Assembly (NCBI GenBank): GCA_031391665.1 | Contig: JANMUN010000153.1 | DNA length: 64,000 bases | Strand: one strand, 5' to 3' | Source: Ferruginibacter sp. | GTDB lineage: Bacteria; Bacteroidota; Bacteroidia; Chitinophagales; Chitinophagaceae | Shown here: piece by piece, positions 40,436-53,727 of the stretch | Numbering within the stretch: position 1 is the stretch's first letter | Layout of the letters: each line of letters opens with the position of its first letter | Position numbers and translations under genes: made by a program | Notes under the pieces: generated by a model | Database searches by the model: none | Seen by the model: the letters and a program-made list of their open reading frames with translations, nothing else | Told to the model about the DNA's origin: nothing

Positions 40436-40472
40436 ATTTATGCAAACCGCCCCTATACTGCCCCTTAAAATT

Positions 40473-40536
40473 AAAAAAGCCCTGAAAGCTAATGCTGTCA
40501 AGGCTTCTATTTTTAAGCTGTACTCGGGATGGGAGT
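40473..40536. repeat. attL: orphan copy of the tRNA-Leu 3' end plus its downstream hairpin
   Basis: The 17-nt core gtactcgggatgggagt (40520-40536) is identical to 47878-47894. 40473-40511 aligns with 47830-47868 with 4 mismatches by eye. Confidence 0.8.
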
Positions 40537-40654
40537 ACTTTATACTTTGCTTCATTTAGTCTATCTTTCCCTGTTTAATCTTTTATAAGCCTTACCTGTA
40601 TTGCATTTCAAGGCATAGGGAGAATAATTTTAAAAAAGTGAGAATAAATTATTT

Positions 40655-40677
40655 CGCCCACTGTACCGCCCACTGTA
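40655..40677 (+). promoter_or_regulatory. Tandem CGCCCACTGTA repeats (candidate integrase arm-type sites), left end
   Basis: cgcccactgta-c-cgcccactgta. The same 19-mer cgcccactgtaccgcccac recurs at 47803-47821 in the same orientation. Confidence 0.45.
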
Positions 40678-40713
40678 AACAATTGCACTAACTTAGCGCA
40701 AAACTAAAAATGT

Positions 40714-41937
40714 ATGGGAAGCGTAAAATTTCAACTAAAAGAACCAAAGAGTAAAGACGAAACATTGCTTGTTATGGTATTTAGTTATAACAGTAAAAGG
40801 GTGAAGTATTCTACTGGAATTTTCCTAAACAAAAAACATTGGAATCATAAAGCACAACAAGCAAGAGATACAAAAGACTTTACAGAAGCCGCCGAAATCA
40901 ATTCTACACTAAAAAATATAAGCACACACATCCATAATGTTTACAGAAAACTGGGCAATGATGGGATTGTACCCACAAATGAAAAATTAAAAGCAGGATT
41001 AGGCGAAGCTTTATTAAAACCCGATATATTGAATAAGAAGGATTTTATAGGCTTTATTGATGCCATTATAAAATCTTCTGCTAAACGACCTAATACAATA
41101 AAGCATTATGGTCAAACATTACGAGTATTGACCGCATTTAAAGCCATTTCTAAGCGAGAACTGACCTTTGCTAACATTGACCTTACTTTCTATGAAGAAT
41201 TTACGAAGTACTGTTTAAAGAAAGATTATGGCGTTAATACGATAGGAGGGTTTATTAAACACGTAAAAGTTTTTATGAATGAAGCTTTTGATAGAAAGAT
41301 TACAACCAACTTGGAATATAAAAACAGAAAATTTAAGACTATTGAAGAAGATACCGAACACATATATTTAACTGACAGCGAAATTGAAATGTTATACAAA
41401 CTTGATTTAAGTGAAAATTCAAAACTAGATAAAGTGAGGGATATGTTTGTACTTAGTTGTTATACTGGATTACGTTACTCGGATTTGATAAAACTAACTG
41501 ACGAAAACTTGATTGATAATAATTCTAAATTGAAAATAAAAACAGAAAAGACAGGCGAATTAGTTATTATTCCATTAAATAAATACATTAAAAAAATTCT
41601 TGTAAAATATAATGGGTTGCCTGACTACGCAATTACTAATCAAAAGATGAATGAGTATCTTAAAGAGTTAGGAGAAAAAGCCGAGTTAAATGAAAATGTT
41701 TTACATTCATTTACTAAAGGCGGCACAAAAAAAAGTGAAAGCTTTCAGAAGTTCCAATTGATAACGGTTCACACTGCAAGGCGTTCTTTTGCAACTAATG
41801 CGTATTTAGCAGATGTACCAAGCATTTCAATCATGAAAATTACCGGACATAAAACGGAAAAAGCATTTTTAAAATATATCAAAATTAGCCAACACGATAA
41901 CGCAAATAAATTAATTAATCACCCTTTTTTCAAATAG
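40714..41937 (+). CDS. Tyrosine-type site-specific integrase (phage integrase family, Bacteroidota Arm/SAM-like N-domains)
   Basis: C-terminal catalytic region: ...TGLRYSDL (Arg I), ...HTARRSFAT (H-x-x-R), ITGHKT.KAFLKYI (His/Tyr). Confidence 0.9.
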   Translation: MGSVKFQLKEPKSKDETLLVMVFSYNSKRVKYSTGIFLNKKHWNHKAQQARDTKDFTEAAEINSTLKNISTHIHNVYRKLGNDGIVPTNEKLKAGLGEALLKPDILNKKDFIGFIDAIIKSSAKRPNTIKHYGQTLRVLTAFKAISKRELTFANIDLTFYEEFTKYCLKKDYGVNTIGGFIKHVKVFMNEAFDRKITTNLEYKNRKFKTIEEDTEHIYLTDSEIEMLYKLDLSENSKLDKVRDMFVLSCYTGLRYSDLIKLTDENLIDNNSKLKIKTEKTGELVIIPLNKYIKKILVKYNGLPDYAITNQKMNEYLKELGEKAELNENVLHSFTKGGTKKSESFQKFQLITVHTARRSFATNAYLADVPSISIMKITGHKTEKAFLKYIKISQHDNANKLINHPFFK

Positions 41938-41938
41938 T

Positions 41939-42862
41939 ATGCAAACTCCGTTTTCAGAAGAAGAGAAAGTAAAATTGTTGGAAGAATTTAAAAAACTTCA
42001 AACAATTGAAGAAAAATTCCTGTTTTGGGAAAATTCTCTTAATTCCAAATACATAACATTTCTTATAGCAACAAGTAATGCATCTCATAGAAACCCCACA
42101 AAACCTTTTTTTGATGCTCTGTATGAATTTAGGATAGTTCCAAAATCACATGAATATCTCGTTTACAATAATCTTGTCTTAGATAGATATAGGAACCAAA
42201 TTCAGATCATGTCAAACAATAACAAATTATTGAACCTTGATGATTTCAAAGAAGATTTCGAAAAACATTTTAAAGAAGTTTCAAACAAAAAAGAATTCAT
42301 TGAGTTAGAAATAAAAAGGGTAAATGATATTGTTGAGAGGAGGAGTAGCCCTAACCCAGACAATTTTGATAATTCCAACACTTTTTTTTCTTATTCATTT
42401 AATGCTGATTATCTAAACAATCAGCCTTTAGATTTAAGTAAGCAACCTTATTATGACATAGAAAATATATTAGCCTATGTCAATGGCGAAGTTGTATCCC
42501 AGTATCTCAAATTTGTTAAGGCTACTTTGGAAAATCTTGAATCGAAACCGACAAAAAAGACTGAAACTTTAAGCCTCGAAGAACAAATTTTAGTACTGGA
42601 TTATTTGGGCTTGTATGGTAAGACCAGCAGGTGCAATTCGGTCGGTAAAAGGGCAAAGCTAATAGGCTTAATTGTCAATAAAGATGAGTTCAATATCCGA
42701 GGCATAATTCCACGCTTTACCGATTTAACTTATTCAAAAATTGGTGTTGAGAAGAAGAAAATAAAGCAAAGACTAGCTAAAATTTCCAATTTATTTGAAG
42801 AGGTCGGTTTAAATGCACTCTCAAAAAAGGTTTCTGCCGATTTAAAAAAGGTAGACAAGTAA
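41939..42862 (+). CDS. Hypothetical island protein
   Basis: 307-aa ORF that starts 2 nt after the integrase stop. No motif was recognised. Confidence 0.55.
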   Translation: MQTPFSEEEKVKLLEEFKKLQTIEEKFLFWENSLNSKYITFLIATSNASHRNPTKPFFDALYEFRIVPKSHEYLVYNNLVLDRYRNQIQIMSNNNKLLNLDDFKEDFEKHFKEVSNKKEFIELEIKRVNDIVERRSSPNPDNFDNSNTFFSYSFNADYLNNQPLDLSKQPYYDIENILAYVNGEVVSQYLKFVKATLENLESKPTKKTETLSLEEQILVLDYLGLYGKTSRCNSVGKRAKLIGLIVNKDEFNIRGIIPRFTDLTYSKIGVEKKKIKQRLAKISNLFEEVGLNALSKKVSADLKKVDK

Positions 42863-42946
42863 AGGGTTTCAGTAGTTTGTAGTACTATATTTCATAACTA
42901 CGTTTCTGTAACACATGCACTTTTGCCCTGTCGATAAAAAAACGAC

Positions 42947-43261
42947 ATGACAAATATGCAAATTCTGCTAAATGGGATTAAAGTCAATGAACTGTTACAA
43001 AAGATTGGTCAGTTAATTGACGAAAAGATTGGGAATATCCAACATCCAACACAAAAAAATCAATCAAATCTAATTTCAAGAAAAGAAGTTTCCCGACTTC
43101 TAAAAATTTCACTTCCAACCTTACACGATTGGACTAAGTCAGGCTTGCTCACGTCTTACAGGATAGGGTCACGCATTCTCTACAAATTGGCAGAAGTAGA
43201 AGAATCAATTACACAAAGAGACTTTAAAAAGTTTCAAAGAGGAGGGTTTAATCATGCATAA
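42947..43261 (+). CDS. Excisionase/AlpA/MerR-like helix-turn-helix DNA-binding protein
   Basis: LISRKEVSRLLKISLPTLHDWTKSGLLTSYRIGSRILYKLAEVE matches the HTH_17/excisionase pattern. Confidence 0.7.
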   Translation: MTNMQILLNGIKVNELLQKIGQLIDEKIGNIQHPTQKNQSNLISRKEVSRLLKISLPTLHDWTKSGLLTSYRIGSRILYKLAEVEESITQRDFKKFQRGGFNHA

Positions 43262-43595
43262 AAATGATTATACCGTAATAGCGTTTTATAAAGATGCTAA
43301 GCCAAAAAAATGGCAGTTTGTACATGGGCTATCAAAGTTTGTTTCATTCATAAACGAAAAGCATCCCAATTGGCTGTACATAAATGTTTATGAACGCAGA
43401 ACGGGTAAATATCTAAAAAGATTTTATCCCAATAACATTATCCCTTACTTTCTAACCTTATTGCCCTTCGCAATAATCCTTTATTTTTTTTTAACCTTTA
43501 ATAAAAATCCGCATCAATCAACCTTTACTAATGATTTTAATAATACCGCAACGATTACGACGCTTAAATCAAAAGGAGGATTGTCATGTATTTAG
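43254..43595 (+). CDS. Hypothetical island protein with one TM helix
   Basis: Overlaps both neighbours by 8-10 nt; hydrophobic segment YFLTLLPFAIILYFFL. Confidence 0.45.
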   Translation: MHKNDYTVIAFYKDAKPKKWQFVHGLSKFVSFINEKHPNWLYINVYERRTGKYLKRFYPNNIIPYFLTLLPFAIILYFFLTFNKNPHQSTFTNDFNNTATITTLKSKGGLSCI

Positions 43596-44491
43596 TAAAA
43601 AACACTTACGGAATCAGTTCCGTGATACATCCAAAAGTGGCAAATCTTTCTTCTATGGGAAAGCTTGCAGGTTCTTCAATGGATAGAAAGAAATACACAA
43701 AGAAGTATAAAGATGAATTAGAACAACTCATTTCTAAGCCATTAGATTTTGAAGAAACAAAAAAGGATGAAGTAAAAAAACTTCGTTCTATGTCAAGGCG
43801 TACAAAATCAAAGATAAGGGTAAAAATAATTGCTTTTTCAAGAGTACATAAAAATCTTTCCTTTCTAACACTAACATTTGTAAATAAGGTGGAAGATTCA
43901 CTTGCCGTAAAAGTGCTTCATAAATTCCTTGATAATTGTGTTAAGCGAAGCAAAGATTTTCAATACTTATGGGTAGCTGAAAAACAAACCCAAAATGAAG
44001 CATTTAAAGACAACATCCACTTTCACATTATCAATAACAAGTTTTGGAAGATTGATAAATGGTGGCCGTACTGGATTCAATTACAAGCAAAGTTTGGAAT
44101 AGTTCCGAGGGATGCAAGTTTTAAACCTACATCAGCTTTCAATGTAAAGCATGTTAGTTCCAACAATGTAAAAGGAATTATCAATTACCTAACAAGCTAC
44201 GTTACAAAAAATGAAAGTGAGTTTGGCTGCCAGGTGTGGAACTGCTCAAAGAAAATCTCCAGGCTCTACACTGGTCATTATTCGGGCTTGGAATTCATAC
44301 ACCAGTTTGAACGATTAGAAGCTGCAGGCCAATTAGGCGGCACAATTAAAACTTACAAACAAGATTATGCAAACGTAAATGTAATACCCTTAAACAGGGT
44401 TACAATCAATTTTTACAGTAAAGTAGATAATAAGAATAAACAGTTTTGGAATAATCCAGAATCATCAGAAAAAATAAAAGAAACATTATGA
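43586..44491 (+). CDS. Putative rolling-circle replication initiator (HUH endonuclease, two-tyrosine phiX174/VP4-like)
   Basis: Motif I SFLTLTF, motif II NIHFHIIN (HUH), and motif III INYLTSYVTK (Y-x3-Y-x2-K), in canonical order and spacing. Confidence 0.6.
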   Translation: MYLVKNTYGISSVIHPKVANLSSMGKLAGSSMDRKKYTKKYKDELEQLISKPLDFEETKKDEVKKLRSMSRRTKSKIRVKIIAFSRVHKNLSFLTLTFVNKVEDSLAVKVLHKFLDNCVKRSKDFQYLWVAEKQTQNEAFKDNIHFHIINNKFWKIDKWWPYWIQLQAKFGIVPRDASFKPTSAFNVKHVSSNNVKGIINYLTSYVTKNESEFGCQVWNCSKKISRLYTGHYSGLEFIHQFERLEAAGQLGGTIKTYKQDYANVNVIPLNRVTINFYSKVDNKNKQFWNNPESSEKIKETL

Positions 44492-44841
44492 GTTTATTTA
44501 ACAGAGTAAGAATGTCCATTATTGAAATGGATGACATACATAAAGAAACACTTTTACAGGAATTAAAAAATGCGCCTACTTTTTTTACTGTCTATACTGA
44601 TAAACAAAAAGTAAGTAAAATTCATCATAGCGGATTGACAGAAGATTTATTTGGTACCCTGTTAGTAATGCTATCAAGGCATATTGGCTTTTTCGACTTC
44701 ATGAAACTATTAATTCTAAATACCGAATTATATAGAAAAGATGGGGGTGTGGAAGGCTTCAATTTTACCCCGAAAGCTTTAGAATATATCGAATGGAAGA
44801 AACGCAATTTTAATCAATCCAAAACCAATGATTTACTATGA
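44488..44841 (+). CDS. Hypothetical island protein
   Basis: ATGA start/stop overlap with the Rep gene. No motif was recognised. Confidence 0.5.
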   Translation: MSLFNRVRMSIIEMDDIHKETLLQELKNAPTFFTVYTDKQKVSKIHHSGLTEDLFGTLLVMLSRHIGFFDFMKLLILNTELYRKDGGVEGFNFTPKALEYIEWKKRNFNQSKTNDLL

Positions 44842-45023
44842 ATGCAATAAAAGCACTAAACGAACAATGCAGGGTTTGCGAACCATGCCGGCTGAACGCA
44901 AAGATTATAGAGTTTGAACAATTGCCGGAAAATGAAAAATTTAACTTTCACTGGTATGAAAAAGATAAACATTTTTTAATTTACTGTGAACCTTGCAAGG
45001 TTTACAAATTGCTTGGAGATTAG
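44838..45023 (+). CDS. Small Cys-rich (zinc-ribbon-like) island protein
   Basis: CRVCEPC ... CEPC pattern in 61 aa; ATGA overlap with the upstream ORF. Confidence 0.45.
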   Translation: MNAIKALNEQCRVCEPCRLNAKIIEFEQLPENEKFNFHWYEKDKHFLIYCEPCKVYKLLGD

Positions 45024-45047
45024 AAGAGAGGCGTAAGCCTCTTTTTT
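45024..45047 (+). terminator. Rho-independent terminator ending the island plus-strand operon
   Basis: gaggc-gtaa-gcctc stem extended by A:T pairs, followed by tttttt. Confidence 0.7.
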
Positions 45048-45152
45048 AGATATAAAGATTACATTAACAACTTTGTAGTTTTAATCGCTTAGAATGAAAA
45101 TATTATCAACTAGAGATTTAATTTTATTGTTCTCTATAATGACAATTTCAGC

Positions 45153-46040
45153 CTAAGATTTTGATGCTACAATACATTTTAAATAAAAACTATGTCCAGC
45201 TTCTGTAAATTTAACCCGCCCCATATCGTCACTCTCAATTAACCTATACTTCATTAGTTTATTAATCCCTTCTCTATTGAAAATAGCTGAAGAAATATTT
45301 CTAGCTAACGATGCTCCATTTGTAATCATGAAATCCAATAAATTAATTTTCTTTTGAGAAATTTCAATACCTTCTTCTTTTAACAGGCCTTCAAGTTGGC
45401 TAAAAGATAATCCTGCATAAAGAGAATTAGAATTCGTTTCAGGGTTACTTAATTTACTTGTCAATTCAAAATTTTCTTTTGTTAGTCTTGCTATTTGTTC
45501 AGCAAGAATTGTTGTATCTACTGAATTATCCCCTCTTATCCACCCTATCAATTCCTTTCTATAACCAAACTCAGACAATGTCTCATGAATTGCTATCTTA
45601 ATATCTTTTGTATCGTCCCAAAATTTTACAAGATTTTTTAACACACTACTTCTAAATAATTCTAATGCTTTTGGATTATGCTGCTCGATTGCAACTAATC
45701 CCATTTTCTTTACTCTTTCCTCTATTATACTGTTATTTATTACCACGGAAAATAAAGGTTTATTTTTTTCCATAGCATACTCATATTCTAATTGGGTATA
45801 GCTCTTCCCTGTTTTAATATCGATACTACCGTATCTTCCTCCAAGAATCAATAGATATATATCCGATTCATCAATCCATCTTTCTATAACTGTCATTTGC
45901 GATTCATCTCCTGCTGAAAATAACTCCATACCTGCAGGTATGTTCCCTGACGACAGAATGGCTTCTACAGCTGCCTGACGTTCTTTTATTAAATCAGTAT
46001 AAGTAGAAGAAACGAATACTTGCAACTTTTTATCCTTCAT
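45153..46040 (-). CDS. DUF4062 (TIR/deoxyribosyltransferase-like fold) domain protein with helical C-terminal half
   Basis: The N-terminus LQVFVSSTYTDLIKERQAAVEAILSSGNIPAGMELFSAGDESQMTVIERWIDESDIYLLILGGRYGS matches my memory of the DUF4062 consensus (VF.SST..DL..ER......I......GME.F.A......CL..I..CD.Y..I.G.RYG). Confidence 0.7.
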   Translation of the reverse strand: MKDKKLQVFVSSTYTDLIKERQAAVEAILSSGNIPAGMELFSAGDESQMTVIERWIDESDIYLLILGGRYGSIDIKTGKSYTQLEYEYAMEKNKPLFSVVINNSIIEERVKKMGLVAIEQHNPKALELFRSSVLKNLVKFWDDTKDIKIAIHETLSEFGYRKELIGWIRGDNSVDTTILAEQIARLTKENFELTSKLSNPETNSNSLYAGLSFSQLEGLLKEEGIEISQKKINLLDFMITNGASLARNISSAIFNREGINKLMKYRLIESDDMGRVKFTEAGHSFYLKCIVASKS

Positions 46041-46170
46041 AGCAATTTTATAGTTTAATGACTTTTAATAAAAAAAGACTTAGGATATCCTCGTCAACTA
46101 AGAAGTGTATTAAGTATGAAGATGGATTTATCATTGAAAAATTCAACATTATAAACTAAGGTTATTGAGT

Positions 46171-46935
46171 TTATATTTCTACCAGATTATTTGATTGTAT
46201 TTCAAGTATGCCCAATCTTGTTATATTAAACTTATCCTTTTGTTTTACAATTAAATCTTTTTCATGCTCCATTCTCAAAAGTGTAGCTTTTAGATTTTTT
46301 CTTTGCAGCGGTTTAACCCATAAAGATAATTGTTCAATTGCAGCACCATTTGAGCCGCAATGATATAATAATAGTAAAATTATTTCTGAAACTTTTAATT
46401 TAGGATTTAAAGTCTTTAAAAAACCATTAAAGTCCTCAACAACAGGGATTGCGTTTATAGTAATTGCTTTAATTAGTTCATAAGCCTTGTCTGCTGTAAT
46501 CCCTCCTGACAATCGAATAAATTCGGCTAAGACCCAATCTAGAGAAGCAAACACAAAACTTGAATCTTGCAAATTTGGGTCAATACCATCTGCTAAATGT
46601 GCCGCATCTCTCTTATTTCTTATATCATAAACAACCCTCAAAGTACGAGGTATATGTATTCGTAAAGAGTCAGGAAATGTGGTTGCTAACCCTTGCAATT
46701 TTCTTATCAAGCCATCAGTATCAAGTTGTTTTCCAATTTGGGTAATACTAAACCCTGCAAGATGTTCGCACATTCGAAAGGCTGCTTCTGAAAACCTACC
46801 GCCTTCAACCTCTGTAGGTCTATGATTGCCTAAGAAATAATTTCTTTTTTGCTCTTGATAGCAATCAAGTAATTCATCAACAAGTTGGGATGGGAATCGA
46901 GAGATTAAAACAGTTTTAATAATATTTAGACTCAC
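46171..46935 (-). CDS. Hypothetical protein with HEPN-like R-x6-H motif and C-terminal winged-helix-like segment
   Basis: The motif IRNKRDAAH (codons at 46597-46620) sits in a predicted helical N-domain. The C-terminal ~70 aa look wHTH-like. ATGA overlap with the upstream ORF. Confidence 0.5.
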   Translation of the reverse strand: MSLNIIKTVLISRFPSQLVDELLDCYQEQKRNYFLGNHRPTEVEGGRFSEAAFRMCEHLAGFSITQIGKQLDTDGLIRKLQGLATTFPDSLRIHIPRTLRVVYDIRNKRDAAHLADGIDPNLQDSSFVFASLDWVLAEFIRLSGGITADKAYELIKAITINAIPVVEDFNGFLKTLNPKLKVSEIILLLLYHCGSNGAAIEQLSLWVKPLQRKNLKATLLRMEHEKDLIVKQKDKFNITRLGILEIQSNNLVEI

Positions 46936-47519
46936 TATTTAGCCTTTTTCTTTTTAGTTGATTTTTTTGCAGTCTTTTTTTTGCTTGCATGCTCTGCTAA
47001 TGCTTTACTTACAGCTTCTCTTTCTGGTAGGGCATTAACAATAGCTTCCCCTTTAGCAGATAGTGCTTTTTTACTGCCACCAATAGAGGTTAAAAAATGT
47101 TGTCTACTTATAGCATGATTTATAAAGACAGATGCATTTGAAAAGGAAGGTTGCCTTCCATCTTTATTTCCTTGTATTATATCCATATTTTTAACTCCAT
47201 CTAAACCTTGAACCTTTTCTAAAAAATAAACAATACATGCAATTTTTTCAGCGTTATCGTGTGGCTTTTTCTGAACCAAAAAATCTTTTATTGAAGTAGT
47301 AACCGGTATTCCAGAAGTATTACTCCCGGTGATGTTTGCCCCCAAAGGATTAGCACTTCCTAAATTTGGGGAAGTTGCAGATTGTATATTTGTTGTACTT
47401 TGAATCTTATATTTCAAAACAATCCAATCAAAAACCCTCTGTCTTTCTTCTGTAGATAGTCCTCCAAAAAAATCATCTATTCCTCTTAACGCATCGTGTT
47501 CGGTAATTTTCTTATTCAT
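46935..47519 (-). CDS. Hypothetical protein: short N-domain, Ser/Thr/Asn/Gly-rich linker, globular C-domain, Lys-rich tail
   Basis: 194-aa ORF, first gene of the minus-strand module. The tail SKKKTAKKSTKKKKAK suggests nucleic-acid binding. Confidence 0.5.
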   Translation of the reverse strand: MNKKITEHDALRGIDDFFGGLSTEERQRVFDWIVLKYKIQSTTNIQSATSPNLGSANPLGANITGSNTSGIPVTTSIKDFLVQKKPHDNAEKIACIVYFLEKVQGLDGVKNMDIIQGNKDGRQPSFSNASVFINHAISRQHFLTSIGGSKKALSAKGEAIVNALPEREAVSKALAEHASKKKTAKKSTKKKKAK

Positions 47520-47802
47520 ATTTATGTTTTTAAACCAATGTGCATTTAAGACACATCAGTAAATATACAAATATTCATTATGAATTAACAACAATTTGAA
47601 TATAGTACATTTAAATTAGTCTAATGAAAAAGATTGAAAGCGTATTAAATCCCACCTTCGATTTTTTAAAAAAAATCTCACCTAAAATGTCCCCCAATGA
47701 AATAAAACAGCCCTGCAAGTCTATAACATAAAGTCTTTTAAGTTATGGCAAGTGCCCAGAACAGGATTAGAACTGTAGGACACATTTTAAATTAATCTAA
47801 AA

Positions 47803-47821
47803 CGCCCACTGTACCGCCCAC
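47803..47821 (+). promoter_or_regulatory. CGCCCACTGTA-type repeat, right end of island
   Basis: cgcccactgtaccgcccac is identical to 40655-40673. Confidence 0.45.
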
Positions 47822-47829
47822 CAAAAAAC

Positions 47830-47894
47830 AAAAAAGCCCTGAAAGTCAATACTGTCAAGGCTTTTATTGGTTGTTAAGTACTCGGGATGGGAGT
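47830..47894. repeat. attR: element-borne hairpin plus core that completes the tRNA-Leu 3' end
   Basis: See attL. The core at 47878-47894 overlaps the last 16 nt of the tRNA. Confidence 0.8.
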
Positions 47895-47964
47895 TGAACC
47901 CACACTTACATTACTGTAAACAGGATTTTAAGTCCTGCGTGTCTACCAGTTCCACCACCCGAGT
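47879..47964 (-). tRNA. tRNA-Leu (anticodon UAA), long variable arm
   Basis: The minus strand reads actcgggtggtggaactggtagacacgcaggacttaaaatcctgt...gtgggttcaactcccatcccgagta. It has a 7-bp acceptor stem, anticodon loop cttaaaa and T-loop ttcaact. Confidence 0.85.
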
Positions 47965-51170: not shown

Positions 51171-51254
51171 GGCCGGGTGGCGAAATTGGTAGACGCACCA
51201 CCTTGAGGTGGTGGCGCTGGAAACGGCGTGCTGGTTCGAATCCAGTCTCGGTCA
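51171..51254 (+). tRNA. tRNA-Leu (anticodon GAG), long variable arm
   Basis: ggccgggtggcgaaattggtagacgcaccaccttgaggtggtggcgctggaaacggcgtgctggttcgaatccagtctcggtca, with anticodon stem ccacc/ggtgg and loop ttgaggt. Confidence 0.85.
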
Positions 51255-51263
51255 CTTTTATAG

Positions 51264-51289
51264 AGCGAAGTTTTTTACTTCGCTTTTTT
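51264..51289 (+). terminator. Terminator after tRNA-Leu(GAG)
   Basis: agcgaagt-ttttt-acttcgct followed by ttttt. Confidence 0.7.
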
Positions 51290-51359
51290 ATTAATAAAAA
51301 AAGGGATTGCAAATACAATTTATAAAATCTGTAATGCAATCCCTTTTATGTTTTACTGG

Positions 51360-53480
51360 TTATTCTTTTATTATTTTAAGCGTTTGCTTAACCTCGCCAT
51401 CTTTAATAATTTTTACAAAATACATTCCTGCGCCAAGCCCCTTACCATTAAAGGTTTCGGTATAGCTTCCTGCAGGTTGTTTTTTATTAACCAATACTTT
51501 TACCTCTTTACCCTGTGCATCATACACTGCAACTGTTACCTGTGCAGTGGTTTTTAATTGGTATTGTATGGTAGTATTCTCCACAAAAGGGTTAGGCGAT
51601 GTTTTTGCCACCATATCAGGAGCGGCTAACAACGAACTAAAACCTTTGTTGAAATTAGGTTGATTGTAAATACTGTTTTGTACAGGTCTGCTGGTAGTTG
51701 TTGCTGCTGTTTTGCAATCACAATTACGGGTACCAGCCCAGGGTGTTTGTACAAATGGAAATGAGCGCCTGAAAACAGTATCATTGGCCTCAACATTTGT
51801 TGTGTAGCCCAACACATTTAAAAGCTTCGGGGTAACAGGGCTTCCTCCTGGTTGATAATCATCGTACCACAAACCAATGGCTGCTAATACCACACCGCTA
51901 ACAGCCTGCAGTTCTATTCTTGTTACATCATCTTCCAGCCTTCTTCCATTAGGGAACCCATCCATGTTTGGAATAAACTGTATGTCTTTATTAGTATTAT
52001 ACCTCGGATCAAGCAATCCTAACACTGCCGCCTGAACTAAACCTTCCGAACTAAAATCAGGTGAGTCACGTTCGGTAGCCGGTACCGCCATATTCAGGCG
52101 CAGCATATCGCCTCCATTAGGAAGAAAATTACTGATAAAAGGTTTACCAACTGCAAGAGGGTTGCCTCCCGCTTTACCTGTTGCCAGTTGATAAGGCGCT
52201 AAATTAGGAACGCCAGTATGAAATATGGGCCACAAATCAACCGAACGTGGTTTGTTGGCACCTGGTAATAATAAGCCGCCAAAATTAGCTTCGCTTAAAG
52301 CGGTACCATTTAATGCAGGATTACCTTTTAATCCAAATAAACCATTTTGTCCGTTACCAAAACCAAACTGCCCTAAAGAATTTTTTTGAACTCTTAATTG
52401 ACTAAAGGCAGGTACAGCAGGTCCAAATTGTGCTTCATCCATATACAATGCCAGCTCGGGATTATAAAAATAATTGCCGAATTTATTTAACCGGGAAAGA
52501 TCCTGGTAGGGCGTTAACCTGTTCCAAAGATTTTTATCGCCAATAGGGATAACCGCTTCGTTGGTTAATGGCATTCCCAATCTTGAAACCTGTATCCAGG
52601 GTCCGTCATATGTTACATAACGGTTATCACCCTCACCAGTATTATCAGGATTTTGAGAAATTTCCCTTAATGTGGTAAATTTTTGCCTGCTTGCAGAAGC
52701 CCATACACCAATAACAAAATTTGGATCAAGAATATTTTTTGCCTGCCTTACTGATTTACGATCCTTTTGTAATGTACTTACATCCACTTCCAGAACAATG
52801 GAAGAAACATTAATACATTTCAAGCCGTCTTCCGATTTTGTAGGCCCAAGGCGTGGGGCATCGCCTAAATCAAAAATGCCACCTAAATCCACAAAGAACG
52901 GATCATCAACGGGACCACAATAAACTTTTTCGCCGGTGCTTGCTGTTTTAATGGCATTATTCAACAGTGTTTCATAACCCCCAGCATTTAATCCAACACT
53001 TGTACTGATTGACCTTTCGCCAATGTTGGGCGGAGGCACAGTTCCGTTTGTTATTATCTTACTGAAGCTCCCCCCTCCATTCATACTCCTTTCAAGTGTA
53101 TAAGTAGTTTTAACATTTTCTTTACCTAAACGGATATTAAAAAATGTAGTGGGATCTTCATTTTTCCGGCTAAATGTAAAACGATAAATAATATCATCGC
53201 CGCTTGTGGCAATGTTATTATCTATATGAATTTCGTAGCGCACATTTTCGCCAAAGTGATAGAAGTTCGGGCCGCCCTGGGGCAACTGAAAAGGAATGTA
53301 ATTGGCAATAAGGATAATTTTGTTTGGGTTATCCGGACTTTTAAAGGCATACACATCTGTGTTATCTGCCAATGGATCATCGGCAATTAAGGGAGCTTCT
53401 CTGTGGCTGGATGCCCATACGGGAAAGGTGTTTACAAGCATGGCCAGCAGCATAACTGCTGCGTAAATTTTCCGTTTCAT
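51360..53480 (-). CDS. DUF4331-domain secreted protein with T9SS C-terminal sorting domain
   Basis: The mature N-terminus SSHREAPLIADDPLADNTDVYAF is the DUF4331 signature. The C-terminus SPNPFVENTTIQYQL...GMYFVKIIKDGEV is a type A sorting domain. Confidence 0.85.
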   Translation of the reverse strand: MKRKIYAAVMLLAMLVNTFPVWASSHREAPLIADDPLADNTDVYAFKSPDNPNKIILIANYIPFQLPQGGPNFYHFGENVRYEIHIDNNIATSGDDIIYRFTFSRKNEDPTTFFNIRLGKENVKTTYTLERSMNGGGSFSKIITNGTVPPPNIGERSISTSVGLNAGGYETLLNNAIKTASTGEKVYCGPVDDPFFVDLGGIFDLGDAPRLGPTKSEDGLKCINVSSIVLEVDVSTLQKDRKSVRQAKNILDPNFVIGVWASASRQKFTTLREISQNPDNTGEGDNRYVTYDGPWIQVSRLGMPLTNEAVIPIGDKNLWNRLTPYQDLSRLNKFGNYFYNPELALYMDEAQFGPAVPAFSQLRVQKNSLGQFGFGNGQNGLFGLKGNPALNGTALSEANFGGLLLPGANKPRSVDLWPIFHTGVPNLAPYQLATGKAGGNPLAVGKPFISNFLPNGGDMLRLNMAVPATERDSPDFSSEGLVQAAVLGLLDPRYNTNKDIQFIPNMDGFPNGRRLEDDVTRIELQAVSGVVLAAIGLWYDDYQPGGSPVTPKLLNVLGYTTNVEANDTVFRRSFPFVQTPWAGTRNCDCKTAATTTSRPVQNSIYNQPNFNKGFSSLLAAPDMVAKTSPNPFVENTTIQYQLKTTAQVTVAVYDAQGKEVKVLVNKKQPAGSYTETFNGKGLGAGMYFVKIIKDGEVKQTLKIIKE

Positions 53481-53727
53481 AAATTTTAAAATTTTGAATT
53501 GTGTAAAATTTTCCTTTGGAAGTTGAAAGGGGAAAAAAGCGATTAGCTTTTACAGGGGGAGAATTAGCATGCGTAACAATTACGACAGAAAGGTTTGGCT
53601 TGGATTTAACTTTTTAAAAAAAACTTTTTATTTTTTATTAGTCTTCTAAATTTTGGGAAACAGCGGCTAAAACTCAATTGTGTTGCCCTGTTTTGCAACA
53701 ACTTCTTATCTTGTAAAAAAATAATTA

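What the first reader, a model, noticed from the sequence alone, without database searches (positions are those of the whole stretch)
40473..47894. 7.36-kb integrative element in the 3' end of tRNA-Leu(UAA) with reconstructable attL/attR
- A 17-nt sequence gtactcgggatgggagt occurs at 40520-40536 and 47878-47894. The right copy is the 3' terminus of an intact tRNA-Leu(UAA) (47879-47964, minus strand). The left copy is an orphan fragment next to the yebC-family gene.
- Homology extends imperfectly for about 39 more nt on the tRNA-downstream side (40473-40511 vs 47830-47868, 4 mismatches by eye). This stretch includes a terminator-like hairpin (agccctgaaagc/gctgtcaaggct), so the element carries its own copy of the tRNA 3' flank.
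- A tyrosine integrase starts 178 nt inside attL. It is followed by tightly overlapping ORFs that include an Xis-like HTH and a HUH Rep.
- The element is visibly more AT-rich than its flanks, though I did not compute this.
- No capsid, terminase, relaxase or type IV secretion genes are visible. It is therefore neither an obvious prophage nor an ICE, and looks like a minimal integrative replicon.
Basis: partly seen in the sequence, partly recalled or inferred. Interest (0 to 1): 0.7.

Follow-up and report, generated by a model that had tools for sequence, protein, structure and literature searches.

The report
Small tRNA-integrating rolling-circle defence element
A 7.4-kb mobile element sits in the end of a leucine tRNA gene; it belongs to a widespread family in Bacteroidota, for which I found no published description, that carries its own integrase, its own rolling-circle replication origin and a swappable slot of anti-phage genes.

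Summary
A 17-nt repeat (40520-40536 and 47878-47894) equals the 3' end of an intact tRNA-Leu(UAA) and brackets a 7.36-kb block of distinct composition.

The block encodes a tyrosine integrase, an excisionase-type HTH, a Rep-class HUH replication protein and three cargo genes. No capsid, terminase, relaxase or type IV secretion genes were detected.

About 80 related loci in Bacteroidota show that this is a family of 5.3-8.9 kb elements. They insert at the 3' ends of at least ten tRNA species and share one layout:
- paired 'arm' repeats on both sides of the core;
- an element-borne terminator hairpin for the rebuilt tRNA;
- a conserved 22-nt candidate origin with iterons just upstream of Rep;
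- a variable slot dominated by restriction and defence genes.

In this element the slot holds a DUF4062 (Swarozyc/Evangelion-like) gene and a conserved two-gene module of unknown function.

It is the leftover arm of an earlier sibling element. A second, decayed arm with a tRNA-Leu(CAA)-type core lies inside the right end.

Excision, replication and the route of cell-to-cell transfer are inferred, not shown.

The parts
40446..40519 (.). Relic right arm of an earlier sibling element, lying outside the current element. It comprises a degenerate double repeat (CCGCCCCTATACTGCCCC, 40447-40464), an A-run and a terminator hairpin (40467-40511).
   Evidence: It aligns end to end with the right arms of siblings inserted at four different tRNAs. 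Its repeat starts 74 nt before the core, in register with the family value of 74-77 nt. The hairpin folds at -22.7 kcal/mol.
40520..40536 (.). attL core: a displaced copy of the last 17 nt of tRNA-Leu(UAA).
   Evidence: Exact 17-mer with only two copies in the window and 0 expected by chance.
40655..40673 (+). Left-arm double repeat (2x CGCCCAC, 12-nt period). Candidate arm-type integrase binding sites, 59 nt before the int ATG.
   Evidence: 19/19 identical to 47803-47821. An equivalent double repeat lies 47-65 nt before int in 39 siblings, and sequence variants co-vary between the two arms.
40714..41937 (+). Tyrosine integrase (407 aa) with an N-terminal arm-DNA-binding domain.
   Evidence: PF17293, PF13102 and PF00589 all score above their cut-offs; phrog_1 integrase 3e-29. 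Read directly from the translation: the motifs TGLRYSD, HTARR, GH and LKY are present.
41939..42862 (+). 307-aa protein of unknown function. The position is conserved in the family, but sequence and length are poorly conserved (139-307 aa).
   Evidence: No significant family hit. Homologs at 24-28% identity in 18 loci.
42947..43261 (+). Excisionase-type HTH protein (104 aa); candidate recombination directionality factor or regulator.
   Evidence: PF12728 HTH_17 8.5e-10. TIGR01764 'excise' scores 30.2 bits against a cut-off of 28.8. Present in 70 related loci.
43254..43595 (+). 113-aa ORF. Only its N-terminal ~65 aa (a beta-beta-alpha-beta-beta domain) is a conserved protein. The C-terminal half reads through the replication origin.
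   Evidence: Flavobacterial homologs end at about 70 aa. AlphaFold pLDDT is about 90 for residues 1-60 and below 50 for 86-113. No informative fold match.
43480..43556 (+). Candidate double-strand origin. It holds AACCTTTA iterons at 43493-43500 and 43520-43527 and the conserved 22-mer TTTTAATAATACCGCAACGATT at 43535-43556, 30 nt before the Rep ATG.
   Evidence: The 22-mer consensus TTTTAATWAWWNTRCAACGATT lies 4-38 nt upstream of Rep in 69 of 75 loci, and in the other 6 with one mismatch. It is there whether or not the region is coding. One to four iterons lie upstream in most loci.
43586..44491 (+). HUH rolling-circle replication initiator (301 aa), Rep-class topology.
   Evidence: PF23343 4.6e-10; phrog_3584 and phrog_3419. 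Invariant in 27 homologs: FLTLTF (residues 93-98), HFH (145-147), Y201 and Y205.
44488..45023 (+). Two small ORFs of 117 aa and 61 aa (the latter Cys-rich, CxxCxxC...CxxC). They are conserved only among closer relatives.
   Evidence: Homologs in 6-7 loci at 30-75% identity. No family hits.
45153..46040 (-). Cargo gene 1: DUF4062 (TIR-like) protein of 295 aa, Swarozyc/Evangelion-type defence candidate.
   Evidence: PF13271 2.7e-29. Matches the PDB KpSwz chains at 9e-27 over residues 2-201. Papers consulted. Absent from all sibling elements.
46171..47519 (-). Cargo genes 2 and 3: an overlapping pair, p194 (46935-47519) then p254 (46171-46935). p254 has an all-alpha putative nuclease-like domain plus a C-terminal winged helix.
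   Evidence: p254 has 1661 homologs at about 60% identity across phyla. In the six contigs examined (about three distinct loci) it is preceded by an adjacent gene of ~180-190 aa. Model pLDDT 83. Weak HEPN-like fold hits and weak Cas3_HD profile hits.
47676..47773 (.). Internal relic of a second right arm plus core. It comprises a degenerate double repeat (47676-47695), a decayed hairpin (47698-47742) and a 22-nt tRNA-Leu(CAA)-like 3' end (47752-47773).
   Evidence: Third member of repeat family D1. The repeat-to-core distance is 76 nt, as in the family. The core resembles the tRNA-Leu(CAA) target of sibling L054. The hairpin no longer folds (z +1.9).
47803..47877 (.). Functional right arm: double repeat (47803-47821), A-run, terminator hairpin for the rebuilt tRNA (47824-47868) and a 9-nt spacer.
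   Evidence: Conserved arm architecture in 39 siblings; 38 of 39 have a hairpin of -10 kcal/mol or stronger.
47878..47964 (-). Intact tRNA-Leu(UAA). Its last 17 nt (47878-47894) form the attR core.
   Evidence: ARAGORN; 17-mer.

Best explanation
The block 40537-47877 is an intact member of a widespread Bacteroidota family of small elements (5.3-8.9 kb) that integrate at tRNA genes and replicate by rolling circle. It has a 17-nt core repeat at each end.

Shown by sequence and comparison:
- The element sits in the 3' end of tRNA-Leu(UAA), and the gene is rebuilt intact.
- It carries a tyrosine integrase with an arm-binding domain.
- Identical double repeats lie on both arms.
- The right arm carries the element's own hairpin-plus-U-run terminator just downstream of the rebuilt tRNA.
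- It encodes an excisionase-type HTH protein.
- It encodes a Rep-class HUH protein, preceded by a family-wide conserved 22-mer and iterons.
- It has a variable slot that, across the family, mostly holds restriction and defence genes.

Inferred mechanism:
- The integrase binds the arm repeats and the core. It recombines the circular element's attP with the tRNA 3' end.
- The HTH protein biases the reaction toward excision.
- The excised circle is nicked by Rep in the conserved 22-mer and amplified by rolling-circle replication.
- The cargo (a DUF4062 NADase-type gene plus a conserved two-gene module) protects the host against phage, which favours retention of the element.
- Because the element has no transfer or packaging genes, spread between cells must use a helper (a conjugative element, phage capsids or vesicles). 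Which one is unknown.

Inferred history:
- The stretch outside the left repeat is the leftover arm of an earlier sibling at the same tRNA.
- The integration module (arms, core and int, which are contiguous in the circular form) was swapped in from another lineage, leaving a decayed tRNA-Leu(CAA)-type arm and core inside the right end.
For: **Boundaries and composition**
-.

**Gene functions**
-.

**Family evidence**
- Rep has 272 homologs, all PF23343.
- There are 79 loci in named Bacteroidota genomes.
- About 48 elements are bracketed by a minus-strand tRNA and a 13-22 nt repeat of its 3' end, usually ~180-190 nt upstream of int.
- Targets are Met-CAT, Asp-GTC, Leu-TAA, Leu-CAA, Leu-GAG, Arg-TCT, Arg-CCT, Glu-TTC, Ser-GGA and Phe-GAA.

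**Arm architecture**
- The layout is conserved, and repeat variants co-vary between the two arms of the same element: window CGCCCAC, L057/L065 CCGCCCC, L004 TGTCCCC, L076 CCTCCCC.
- The hairpin is homologous between elements that use different tRNAs.
- The hairpin is stable in 38 of 39 elements, median -19.7 kcal/mol.

**Origin**
- The 22-mer is found in 75 of 75 loci allowing one mismatch, and is independent of coding status.

**Cargo**
- The window's three cargo genes are absent from all siblings.
- Sibling slots hold GmrSD, type II R-M, Mrr, McrBC, HNH, AAA_21/AAA_15, KAP NTPase and similar genes.
- The window's DUF4062 gene matches KpSwz.

**Module swap**
- L003, L004 and L008 have Rep at 74-77% and p113 at 72-76% identity to the window, but Int at only 48-49%.
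- The best Int match (59%, L019) has Rep at 54%.

**Context differs in relatives**
- L001 (95% DNA identity over yebC) diverges 3 nt after the stop codon.
- L103 (78% identity in flanking genes) joins an L-type arm directly to the tRNA.
Against: - There is no direct evidence that this copy excises. No circular junction and no clean empty site were recovered.
- None of 13 element-sized contigs had terminal overlaps that would indicate circles.
- The only other contig carrying this element is in the same integrated state.
- L103 ends 60 nt beyond the arm, so it may itself carry an element.
- No free plasmid or virus form of the family was found: no hit in INPHARED, none in IMG/VR by protein pattern or origin motif, and only a 28% match to a Vagococcus plasmid in PLSDB.
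- The role of the 22-mer as a nick site is inferred from conservation and position only.
- The residue aligned with the catalytic Glu of KpSwz is Gln in the window protein.
- The transfer route is unknown.
Confidence: 0.85

Rival explanations
1. It is an integrative mobilizable element. After excision, the HUH protein acts as a non-canonical relaxase at the conserved 22-mer (which would then be an oriT), and single-stranded DNA is exported through the mating pore of a co-resident conjugative element.
For: The element has integration and excision genes but no transfer genes. Rep-related proteins serve as relaxases in streptococcal IMEs (PMC5704250, PMC7563843, listed). The family spans four orders of Bacteroidota, which implies efficient horizontal spread.
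Against: No relaxase, coupling-protein or Mob family hit was found. The protein has Rep-class motif order, with HUH before the tyrosines; canonical relaxases have the reverse order (established knowledge of the HUH superfamily). It belongs to PF23343, the family of ssDNA-phage initiators. No helper was identified.
Confidence: 0.3
2. It is a phage satellite of the capsid-less type (like marine VEIMEs). It is induced by a helper phage, amplified by rolling-circle replication and packaged in the helper's capsids.
For: Its size, integrase, autonomous replication, lack of capsid genes and defence hotspot match VEIMEs (<5-16.8 kb, no capsid genes, packaged as concatemers; PMC9618062). They also match tycheposons.
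Against: The family is absent from 2.9 million IMG/VR contigs by two independent scans. This is weak evidence, because IMG/VR selects on viral hallmark genes. No terminase small subunit, packaging or capsid-redirecting genes were found. HUH initiators normally yield unit-length single-stranded circles rather than double-stranded concatemers (established knowledge).
Confidence: 0.25
3. It is a degraded or defective provirus of a single-stranded DNA phage (microvirus- or inovirus-like) that has lost its structural genes.
For: The Rep belongs to PF23343 (ORF2/G2P of ssDNA phages) and hits PHROG replication-initiator families.
Against: No capsid, coat or morphogenesis ATPase gene is found here or in any of about 47 delimited siblings. 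The same gene set is conserved intact across four orders, which argues for a functional design rather than decay. tblastn found no similarity to any deposited phage.
Confidence: 0.07
4. It is a fixed, no longer mobile genomic island whose repeats are historical leftovers.
For: No excision product or empty site was recovered. Relic arms show that members of this family do decay in place.
Against: All ten ORFs are open. The core repeats are 17/17 identical and the arm repeats 19/19 identical, whereas the relic arms nearby are clearly degraded. Composition is still foreign.
Confidence: 0.1

Closest known systems
Tycheposons (Prochlorococcus and other marine bacteria; bioRxiv 10.1101/2020.12.28.424599)
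   Same: Both are cargo-carrying elements with site-specific tyrosine recombinases. Both insert at tRNA genes, are flanked by a partial tRNA copy, and carry their own replication genes but no capsid or conjugation genes. Successive integrations at one tRNA leave tandem elements and degraded remnants, as seen here with the two relic arms.
   Different: Tycheposons replicate with primase, helicase or polymerase modules, not an HUH initiator. They are typically larger, their integrases form their own clade (not tested here), and their hosts are different. The arm, terminator and origin architecture described here was not among the passages of that paper I retrieved.
Virion-encapsidated integrative mobile elements, VEIMEs (PMC9618062)
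   Same: Both have small size, an integrase, replication genes, no major capsid gene, and defence or interference genes.
   Different: VEIMEs are defined by being found as concatemers inside virus particles. This family was not found in IMG/VR, and packaging has not been tested.
int-xis-rep module of actinomycete integrative and conjugative elements such as pSAM2, SLP1 and pMEA300 (PMC2440964)
   Same: Both integrate at tRNA genes and combine an integrase, an excisionase and a rolling-circle Rep that amplifies the excised circle (abstract seen; module details from my own knowledge).
   Different: AICEs carry an FtsK-like Tra protein for double-stranded DNA conjugation and live in Actinobacteria. 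No such gene is present here.
Integrative mobilizable elements, including Bacteroides NBU1, which also targets the 3' end of a tRNA-Leu (NBU1 recalled from memory, not checked here; IME review PMC5704250)
   Same: Both are small, integrase-bearing elements that depend on a helper. Both use the tRNA 3' end as the target.
   Different: IMEs are defined by an oriT and usually a relaxase or Mob protein. None is detectable here, and the HUH protein has Rep-class rather than relaxase-class motif order.
phiX174 gene A-type (two-tyrosine) HUH initiators and small rolling-circle plasmids
   Same: Both have motif I (FLTLTF), an HUH motif (HFH) and a Y-x3-Y motif (YLTSYVTKN). Both have an origin placed next to the rep gene, with iterons. 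The resemblance to the phiX174 YVAKYVNK motif is from memory.
   Different: The initiator here is coupled to a tyrosine integrase and a chromosomal tRNA site. No solved structure or deposited phage is detectably related by sequence.

Membership tests
tRNA-targeting tyrosine-recombinase integrative element | Tyrosine recombinase with catalytic residues | tested here: met
   PF00589, PF13102 and PF17293 score above their cut-offs. The R (TGLRYSD), HxxR (HTARR), H (GH) and Y (LKY) motifs were read directly from the translation.
tRNA-targeting tyrosine-recombinase integrative element | Direct repeats equal to the tRNA 3' end, with an intact tRNA at one end | tested here: met
   The same arrangement is seen in about 48 siblings.
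tRNA-targeting tyrosine-recombinase integrative element | Unoccupied site in relatives | tested here: inconclusive
   L103 joins an L-type arm directly to tRNA-Leu, with 90% identity over 70 nt to 40467-40536, but its contig ends 60 nt further on. L001 lacks the element downstream of a 95%-identical yebC.
tRNA-targeting tyrosine-recombinase integrative element | Excised circular form (attP junction) | not testable with these tools
   Raw reads were not available. No circular contigs were found.
Integrative and conjugative element (ICE) | Type IV secretion system, coupling protein and relaxase | tested here: not met
   No such Pfam, NCBIfam or PHROG hit in any of the ten ORFs.
Integrative mobilizable element (IME) | Relaxase or Mob protein and an oriT | tested here: not met
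   No relaxase family hit. The HUH protein has Rep-class motif order. Use of the Rep as a relaxase cannot be excluded.
Prophage of Microviridae or Inoviridae | Major capsid or coat protein and, for inoviruses, a morphogenesis ATPase | tested here: not met
   There are no such hits here. None appeared among the 25 most frequent of 49 Pfam families in the cargo of 47 siblings; the other 24 were not displayed. Only the Rep family (PF23343) is shared.
Phage satellite (PICI, P4-like, VEIME) | Packaging or capsid-redirecting genes, or presence in virions | tested here: inconclusive
   No terS, capsid or redirecting gene was found. The family is absent from IMG/VR, but IMG/VR selects for viral hallmark genes.
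Actinomycete integrative and conjugative element (AICE) | FtsK/SpoIIIE-type Tra protein | tested here: not met
   No such domain was found. The int-xis-rep part is matched.
Tycheposon | Membership of the tycheposon tyrosine-recombinase clade | not tested
   No tycheposon integrase sequences were at hand.
HUH endonuclease superfamily, Rep class | Motif I, an HUH motif, then the catalytic Tyr motif C-terminal to it | tested here: met
   FLTLTF (93-98), HFH (145-147) and Y201/Y205 are invariant in 27 homologs. PF23343 scores above its cut-off.
Swarozyc / Evangelion DUF4062 defence genes | N-terminal DUF4062 (TIR-like) domain followed by a variable auxiliary region | tested here: met
   PF13271 2.7e-29. 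KpSwz match at 9e-27 over residues 2-201. In homologs the N-terminal ~200 aa are conserved and the C-termini vary.
Swarozyc / Evangelion DUF4062 defence genes | Catalytic glutamate (E97 of KpSwz) | tested here: inconclusive
   The aligned residue is Gln83. This subfamily has an invariant Glu85 two residues downstream. Whether Glu85 substitutes is unknown.

The most novel reading that the evidence does not exclude
This is one copy of an undescribed, Bacteroidota-wide class of ~6-kb helper-dependent 'defence shuttles'. Three claims make up this reading:
- The elements combine a tRNA-specific integrase with a phiX-type rolling-circle initiator and use the resulting single-stranded or multimeric DNA to hitch a ride in phage capsids, vesicles or mating pores.
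- Their integration cassette (arm, core, arm, int) is exchanged as a unit between lineages, retargeting them to new tRNAs and leaving fossil att sites.
- Their variable slot is a rich source of new defence systems, including the conserved p194-p254 pair.
Probability: 0.35. Interest if true: 0.7.

Novelty: new variant of a known kind. Interest (0 to 1): 0.55.

Why it matters
- **A defined family.** The finding turns one island in one window into a sharply delimited family: about 80 loci and at least ten tRNA targets, with explicit att cores, arm sites, terminator, origin and cargo slot.
- **Defence-gene discovery in Bacteroidota.** This phylum has few characterised small mobile elements. The family offers a compact map for finding new anti-phage genes, because the slot is already dominated by restriction and abortive-infection genes. 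In this window it holds a DUF4062 gene of a type shown to be defensive only in 2026 preprints, plus an uncharacterised two-gene module spread across phyla.
- **Att-site switching.** The family is a natural experiment in how integrases change tRNA targets.
- **Genetic tools.** It provides candidate parts (integrase plus attP, and a small origin plus Rep) for genetic tools in Flavobacteriia, Chitinophagia and related classes.

Tried and rejected
- **Exact-protein look-ups for other strains.**
  - YebC gave only a 1.2-kb contig with a different downstream sequence.
  - The flanking glycosyltransferase and p194 gave nothing.
  - Rep gave one contig identical to the window.
- **Search for circular forms.** None of 13 element-sized contigs had terminal overlaps.
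- **Junction-pattern scan of JGI metagenomes.** One hit (L103). It was informative but is not a clean empty site. The window's own contig is evidently not in that collection, so the absence of attP and attB there says nothing.
- **Virus link.**
  - Rep against INPHARED gave no hit.
  - IMG/VR protein-pattern scan gave no relative.
  - The IMG/VR origin-motif scan gave 7 hits, none of which encodes any element protein, so I take them to be unrelated matches.
- **Plasmid link.** The only hit was a 28% match to a 3.4-kb Vagococcus plasmid.
- **Function of the conserved small protein p113.** No significant PDB match. The BFVD matches are small uncharacterised phage proteins.
- **Rep profile against PDB sequences.** No hit.
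- **My automated test for a U-run after the hairpin.** It failed because the A-run pairs with the U-run in the folds. For the U-run I rely on the sequences listed and the folds.
- **Simple terminator scan.** It misses the arm hairpins because their loops exceed its limit.
- **Extra 2.45 kb next to tRNA-Leu(GAG).** Considered as a second element and rejected: it is a single gene for a 706-aa protein with no integrase.
- **'Charybdis' elements as the same family.** Considered and rejected: they lack a Rep and have a structural module.

Full report
**1. The observation**

- The 17-mer GTACTCGGGATGGGAGT occurs only at 40520-40536 and 47878-47894, with none expected by chance.
- ARAGORN finds an intact tRNA-Leu(taa) at 47878-47964 on the minus strand. 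The right copy is therefore the tRNA's last 17 nt, and the left copy is an orphan.
- The adjoining homology is real. 40467-40511 and 47824-47868 are 87% identical. Both copies fold, on the tRNA strand, into a hairpin followed by a U-run.
- The block between the repeats has GC 0.319 against 0.366 elsewhere. No other window of the same size is as low, and its tetranucleotide usage is the most deviant in the window.
No capsid, terminase, relaxase or secretion gene was detected.

**2. New features in the window**

- A 19-nt exact repeat, CGCCCACTGTACCGCCCAC, is made of two CGCCCAC units 12 nt apart. It lies 59 nt before the integrase ATG (40655-40673) and again 57 nt before the right core (47803-47821).
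- A third, decayed copy of the 'double repeat, A-run, hairpin, tRNA-like end' module lies just inside the right end at 47676-47773.

**3. It is one of a family**

- The Rep has 272 homologs, all PF23343, mostly from Chitinophagaceae and other Bacteroidota.
- A scan of one genome per species returned 79 loci in Chitinophagales, Flavobacteriales, Cytophagales, Sphingobacteriales and Paludibacter.
- In about 48 loci the Rep region is bracketed by a tRNA gene on the opposite strand and a 13-22 nt repeat of that tRNA's 3' end, usually ~180-190 nt upstream of an integrase gene. Element sizes are 5.3-8.9 kb.
- The targets are Met-CAT (most Flavobacteriaceae), Asp-GTC, Leu-TAA, Leu-CAA, Leu-GAG, Arg-TCT, Arg-CCT, Glu-TTC, Ser-GGA and Phe-GAA. 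Flanking genes are unrelated between loci.
- Integrase, HTH, the small protein p113 and Rep are found in 65-85 loci. The window's three minus-strand genes are found in none.

**4. Shared architecture**

- On the tRNA-proximal side every element has a double repeat (consensus about CGTCCCCT, 12-nt period) starting 74-77 nt before the core. An A-run and a GC-rich hairpin follow.
- On the other side the same double repeat lies 47-65 nt before the integrase ATG.
- Repeat variants change together on both arms of the same element: CGCCCAC here, CCGCCCC in L057 and L065, TGTCCCC in L004, CCTCCCC in L076. This is what arm-type sites read by a co-evolving integrase domain would look like (inference).
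- The hairpin is stable in 38 of 39 elements, with median -19.7 kcal/mol and median z -4.5.
- On the tRNA strand the hairpin is followed by a U-run. The element therefore brings a replacement terminator for the tRNA whose native 3' flank it displaces.

**5.

- The hairpin of a sibling that targets tRNA-Arg (L004) is homologous to the window's right-arm hairpin. The hairpin therefore belongs to the element, not to the tRNA-Leu locus.
- In most siblings the sequence outside the left core is an unrelated native terminator.
- In the window, the outside-left stretch (40446-40519) instead aligns end to end with sibling right arms, including its degenerate double repeat at the family distance of 74 nt.
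- It is therefore best read as the leftover right arm of an earlier sibling that sat at this tRNA before the present element arrived. Similar outside relics occur in L054 and probably L017.

**6. The inner relic and module exchange**

- The inner module ends in GTGCCCAGAACAGGATTAGAAC. This resembles the tRNA-Leu(CAA) 3' end used by sibling L054 (GTGCCCGGAACAGGA) more than it resembles tRNA-Leu(UAA).
- Its hairpin no longer folds. Its repeat-to-core distance of 76 nt is still in register with the family.
- The present integrase's own arm repeat matches the outer right arm 19/19, so the outer arm is the working one.
- The loci with the closest Rep (74-77%) and p113 (72-76%) have the most distant integrases (48-49%). 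The closest integrase (59%) comes with a 54% Rep.
- In the circular form, right arm, core, left arm and int are contiguous. I infer that this cassette was exchanged between lineages and that the inner relic is the scar of the previous cassette. A nested or tandem insertion followed by deletion is the alternative.

**7. Replication module**

- The Rep has invariant FLTLTF, HFH and Y201/Y205 (YLTSYVTKN) in that order. This is the Rep-class arrangement of HUH enzymes. The order rule is established knowledge of the superfamily.
- Just upstream of Rep, the 22-mer TTTTAATWAWWNTRCAACGATT is present in 69 of 75 loci and, with one mismatch, in the other six. It lies 4-38 nt before the ATG and is preceded by one to four AACCTT[TC]A iterons.
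- In the window the 22-mer is at 43535-43556 and the iterons are at 43493-43500 and 43520-43527.
- The motif is conserved whether or not it is inside an ORF. In Flavobacteriia the p113 homolog stops at about 70 aa before this region. In Chitinophagales the ORF reads through it, and that part of the model has pLDDT below 50.
- I take this region to be the double-strand origin. That is an inference from conservation and position.

**8. Cargo**

- Across 47 delimited siblings the variable slot (1.5-4.6 kb) is dominated by GmrSD, type II restriction-modification, Mrr, McrBC, HNH, AAA_21/AAA_15, KAP NTPase, type ISP enzymes and Fic.
- In the window the slot holds a 295-aa DUF4062 protein. It matches the solved KpSwz structure sequences at E 9e-27.
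- Two 2026 preprints describe DUF4062 proteins as single-gene, NAD-depleting anti-phage systems named Swarozyc and Evangelion.
- The position of the KpSwz catalytic Glu is Gln in the window protein. Its subfamily has an invariant Glu two residues on, so enzymatic equivalence is open.
- The other two genes form an overlapping pair. p254 has 1661 homologs at about 60% identity in distant phyla. In the six contigs examined (about three distinct loci) it is preceded by a ~180-190 aa gene.
- The p254 model (pLDDT 83) is an all-alpha domain plus a winged helix. It gives weak HEPN-like fold matches and weak Cas3_HD profile matches. Given where it sits, it is a candidate defence or toxin-antitoxin module. 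This is guilt by association only.

**9. What is not shown**

- No excised circle or clean empty site was found.
- L103 is a relative with about 78% DNA identity in the flanking genes and the same tRNA-Leu, tRNA-Gly, glycosyltransferase synteny. Its tRNA is joined directly to an arm whose hairpin and spacer are of the window's left type (90% over 70 nt), and it has one CGCCCACC repeat. This is the junction predicted for the site before the present insertion, but the contig ends 60 nt further on.
- L001 is 95% identical over yebC and diverges 3 nt after the stop codon. The yebC-element adjacency is therefore not conserved.
- No phage, virome or plasmid form of the family was found.
- How the elements move between cells is therefore unknown. 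Mobilisation by conjugative elements, capsid or vesicle hitch-hiking, and transformation all remain possible.

**10. Comparison and verdict**

- Functionally the element combines the int-xis-rep logic of actinomycete AICEs, the tRNA-seeded accretion and remnants of tycheposons, and the defence hotspot of phage satellites and VEIMEs.
- It fails the defining tests for an ICE, an AICE, a canonical IME and an ssDNA prophage (see the membership table).
- I found no description of this family in the searchable literature. That library lacks most papers from subscription journals, so an earlier description may have been missed.
- The kind of thing is known. The family and its anatomy appear to be new.
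- I rate the finding a real, correctly read feature of moderate interest. Most of that interest comes from the family-level picture rather than from this single copy.

Noticed in passing
window 51256-53706: Compared with the related contig L103, the window has an extra ~2.45 kb immediately 3' of tRNA-Leu(GAG) (51171-51255, + strand). It holds a single minus-strand gene for a 706-aa protein with a hydrophobic, signal-like N-terminus. There is no integrase and no repeat.
   Followed up: partly
L001 770-1204 versus window 40391 onward: A metagenome contig with a YebC identical in protein and 95% identical in DNA diverges completely 3 nt after the stop codon. Its 434 nt of downstream sequence occurs nowhere in the window. 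A rearrangement or deletion boundary therefore sits right at the end of yebC.
   Followed up: partly
L103 40-136: The arm next to tRNA-Leu(UAA) in this relative is chimeric. Its repeat is of the window's rare CGCCCAC type (one copy only), while its hairpin and spacer are of the window's outside-left type. This suggests recombination or gene conversion between the arms of successive elements.
   Followed up: no
L090 5700-5880; L054 7320-7447: Extra degenerate copies of the right-arm module also occur in other family members. In L090 the copy is inside the right end. In L054 it is outside the left core. Relic arms are therefore recurrent in this family.
   Followed up: partly
L098 608-2908: In this family member an IS21-type pair (IstB and a transposase with rve / Mu-transposase domains) occupies the place of the integrase, upstream of the HTH gene. 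This copy is probably disabled.
   Followed up: no
L056, L031, L035, L048, L082, L069: In these loci the tRNA-end repeat lies 0.4-7 kb upstream of the integrase rather than ~185 nt. This implies extra inserted DNA or tandem elements between the core and int.
   Followed up: no
L016 (JAUZPL010000083.1): A family Rep (57% identity) sits on a contig binned as 'Bacillota bacterium', the only non-Bacteroidota label among 79 loci. This is either a binning error or a wider host range.
   Followed up: no
L104-L109: The p194-p254 pair recurs in Acidobacteria (Terracidiphilus), where a third small gene lies upstream. It also recurs in a Chitinophagaceae genome, next to RelA_SpoT-domain and ParA-like genes.
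   Followed up: partly
window 43535-43556: The conserved origin 22-mer (…TGrTTTTAATAATACTGC…) loosely resembles the phiX174 origin core (…TTGATATTAATAACACT…) as I recall it. This is AT-rich sequence compared from memory only, so treat it as a lead, not evidence.
   Followed up: no
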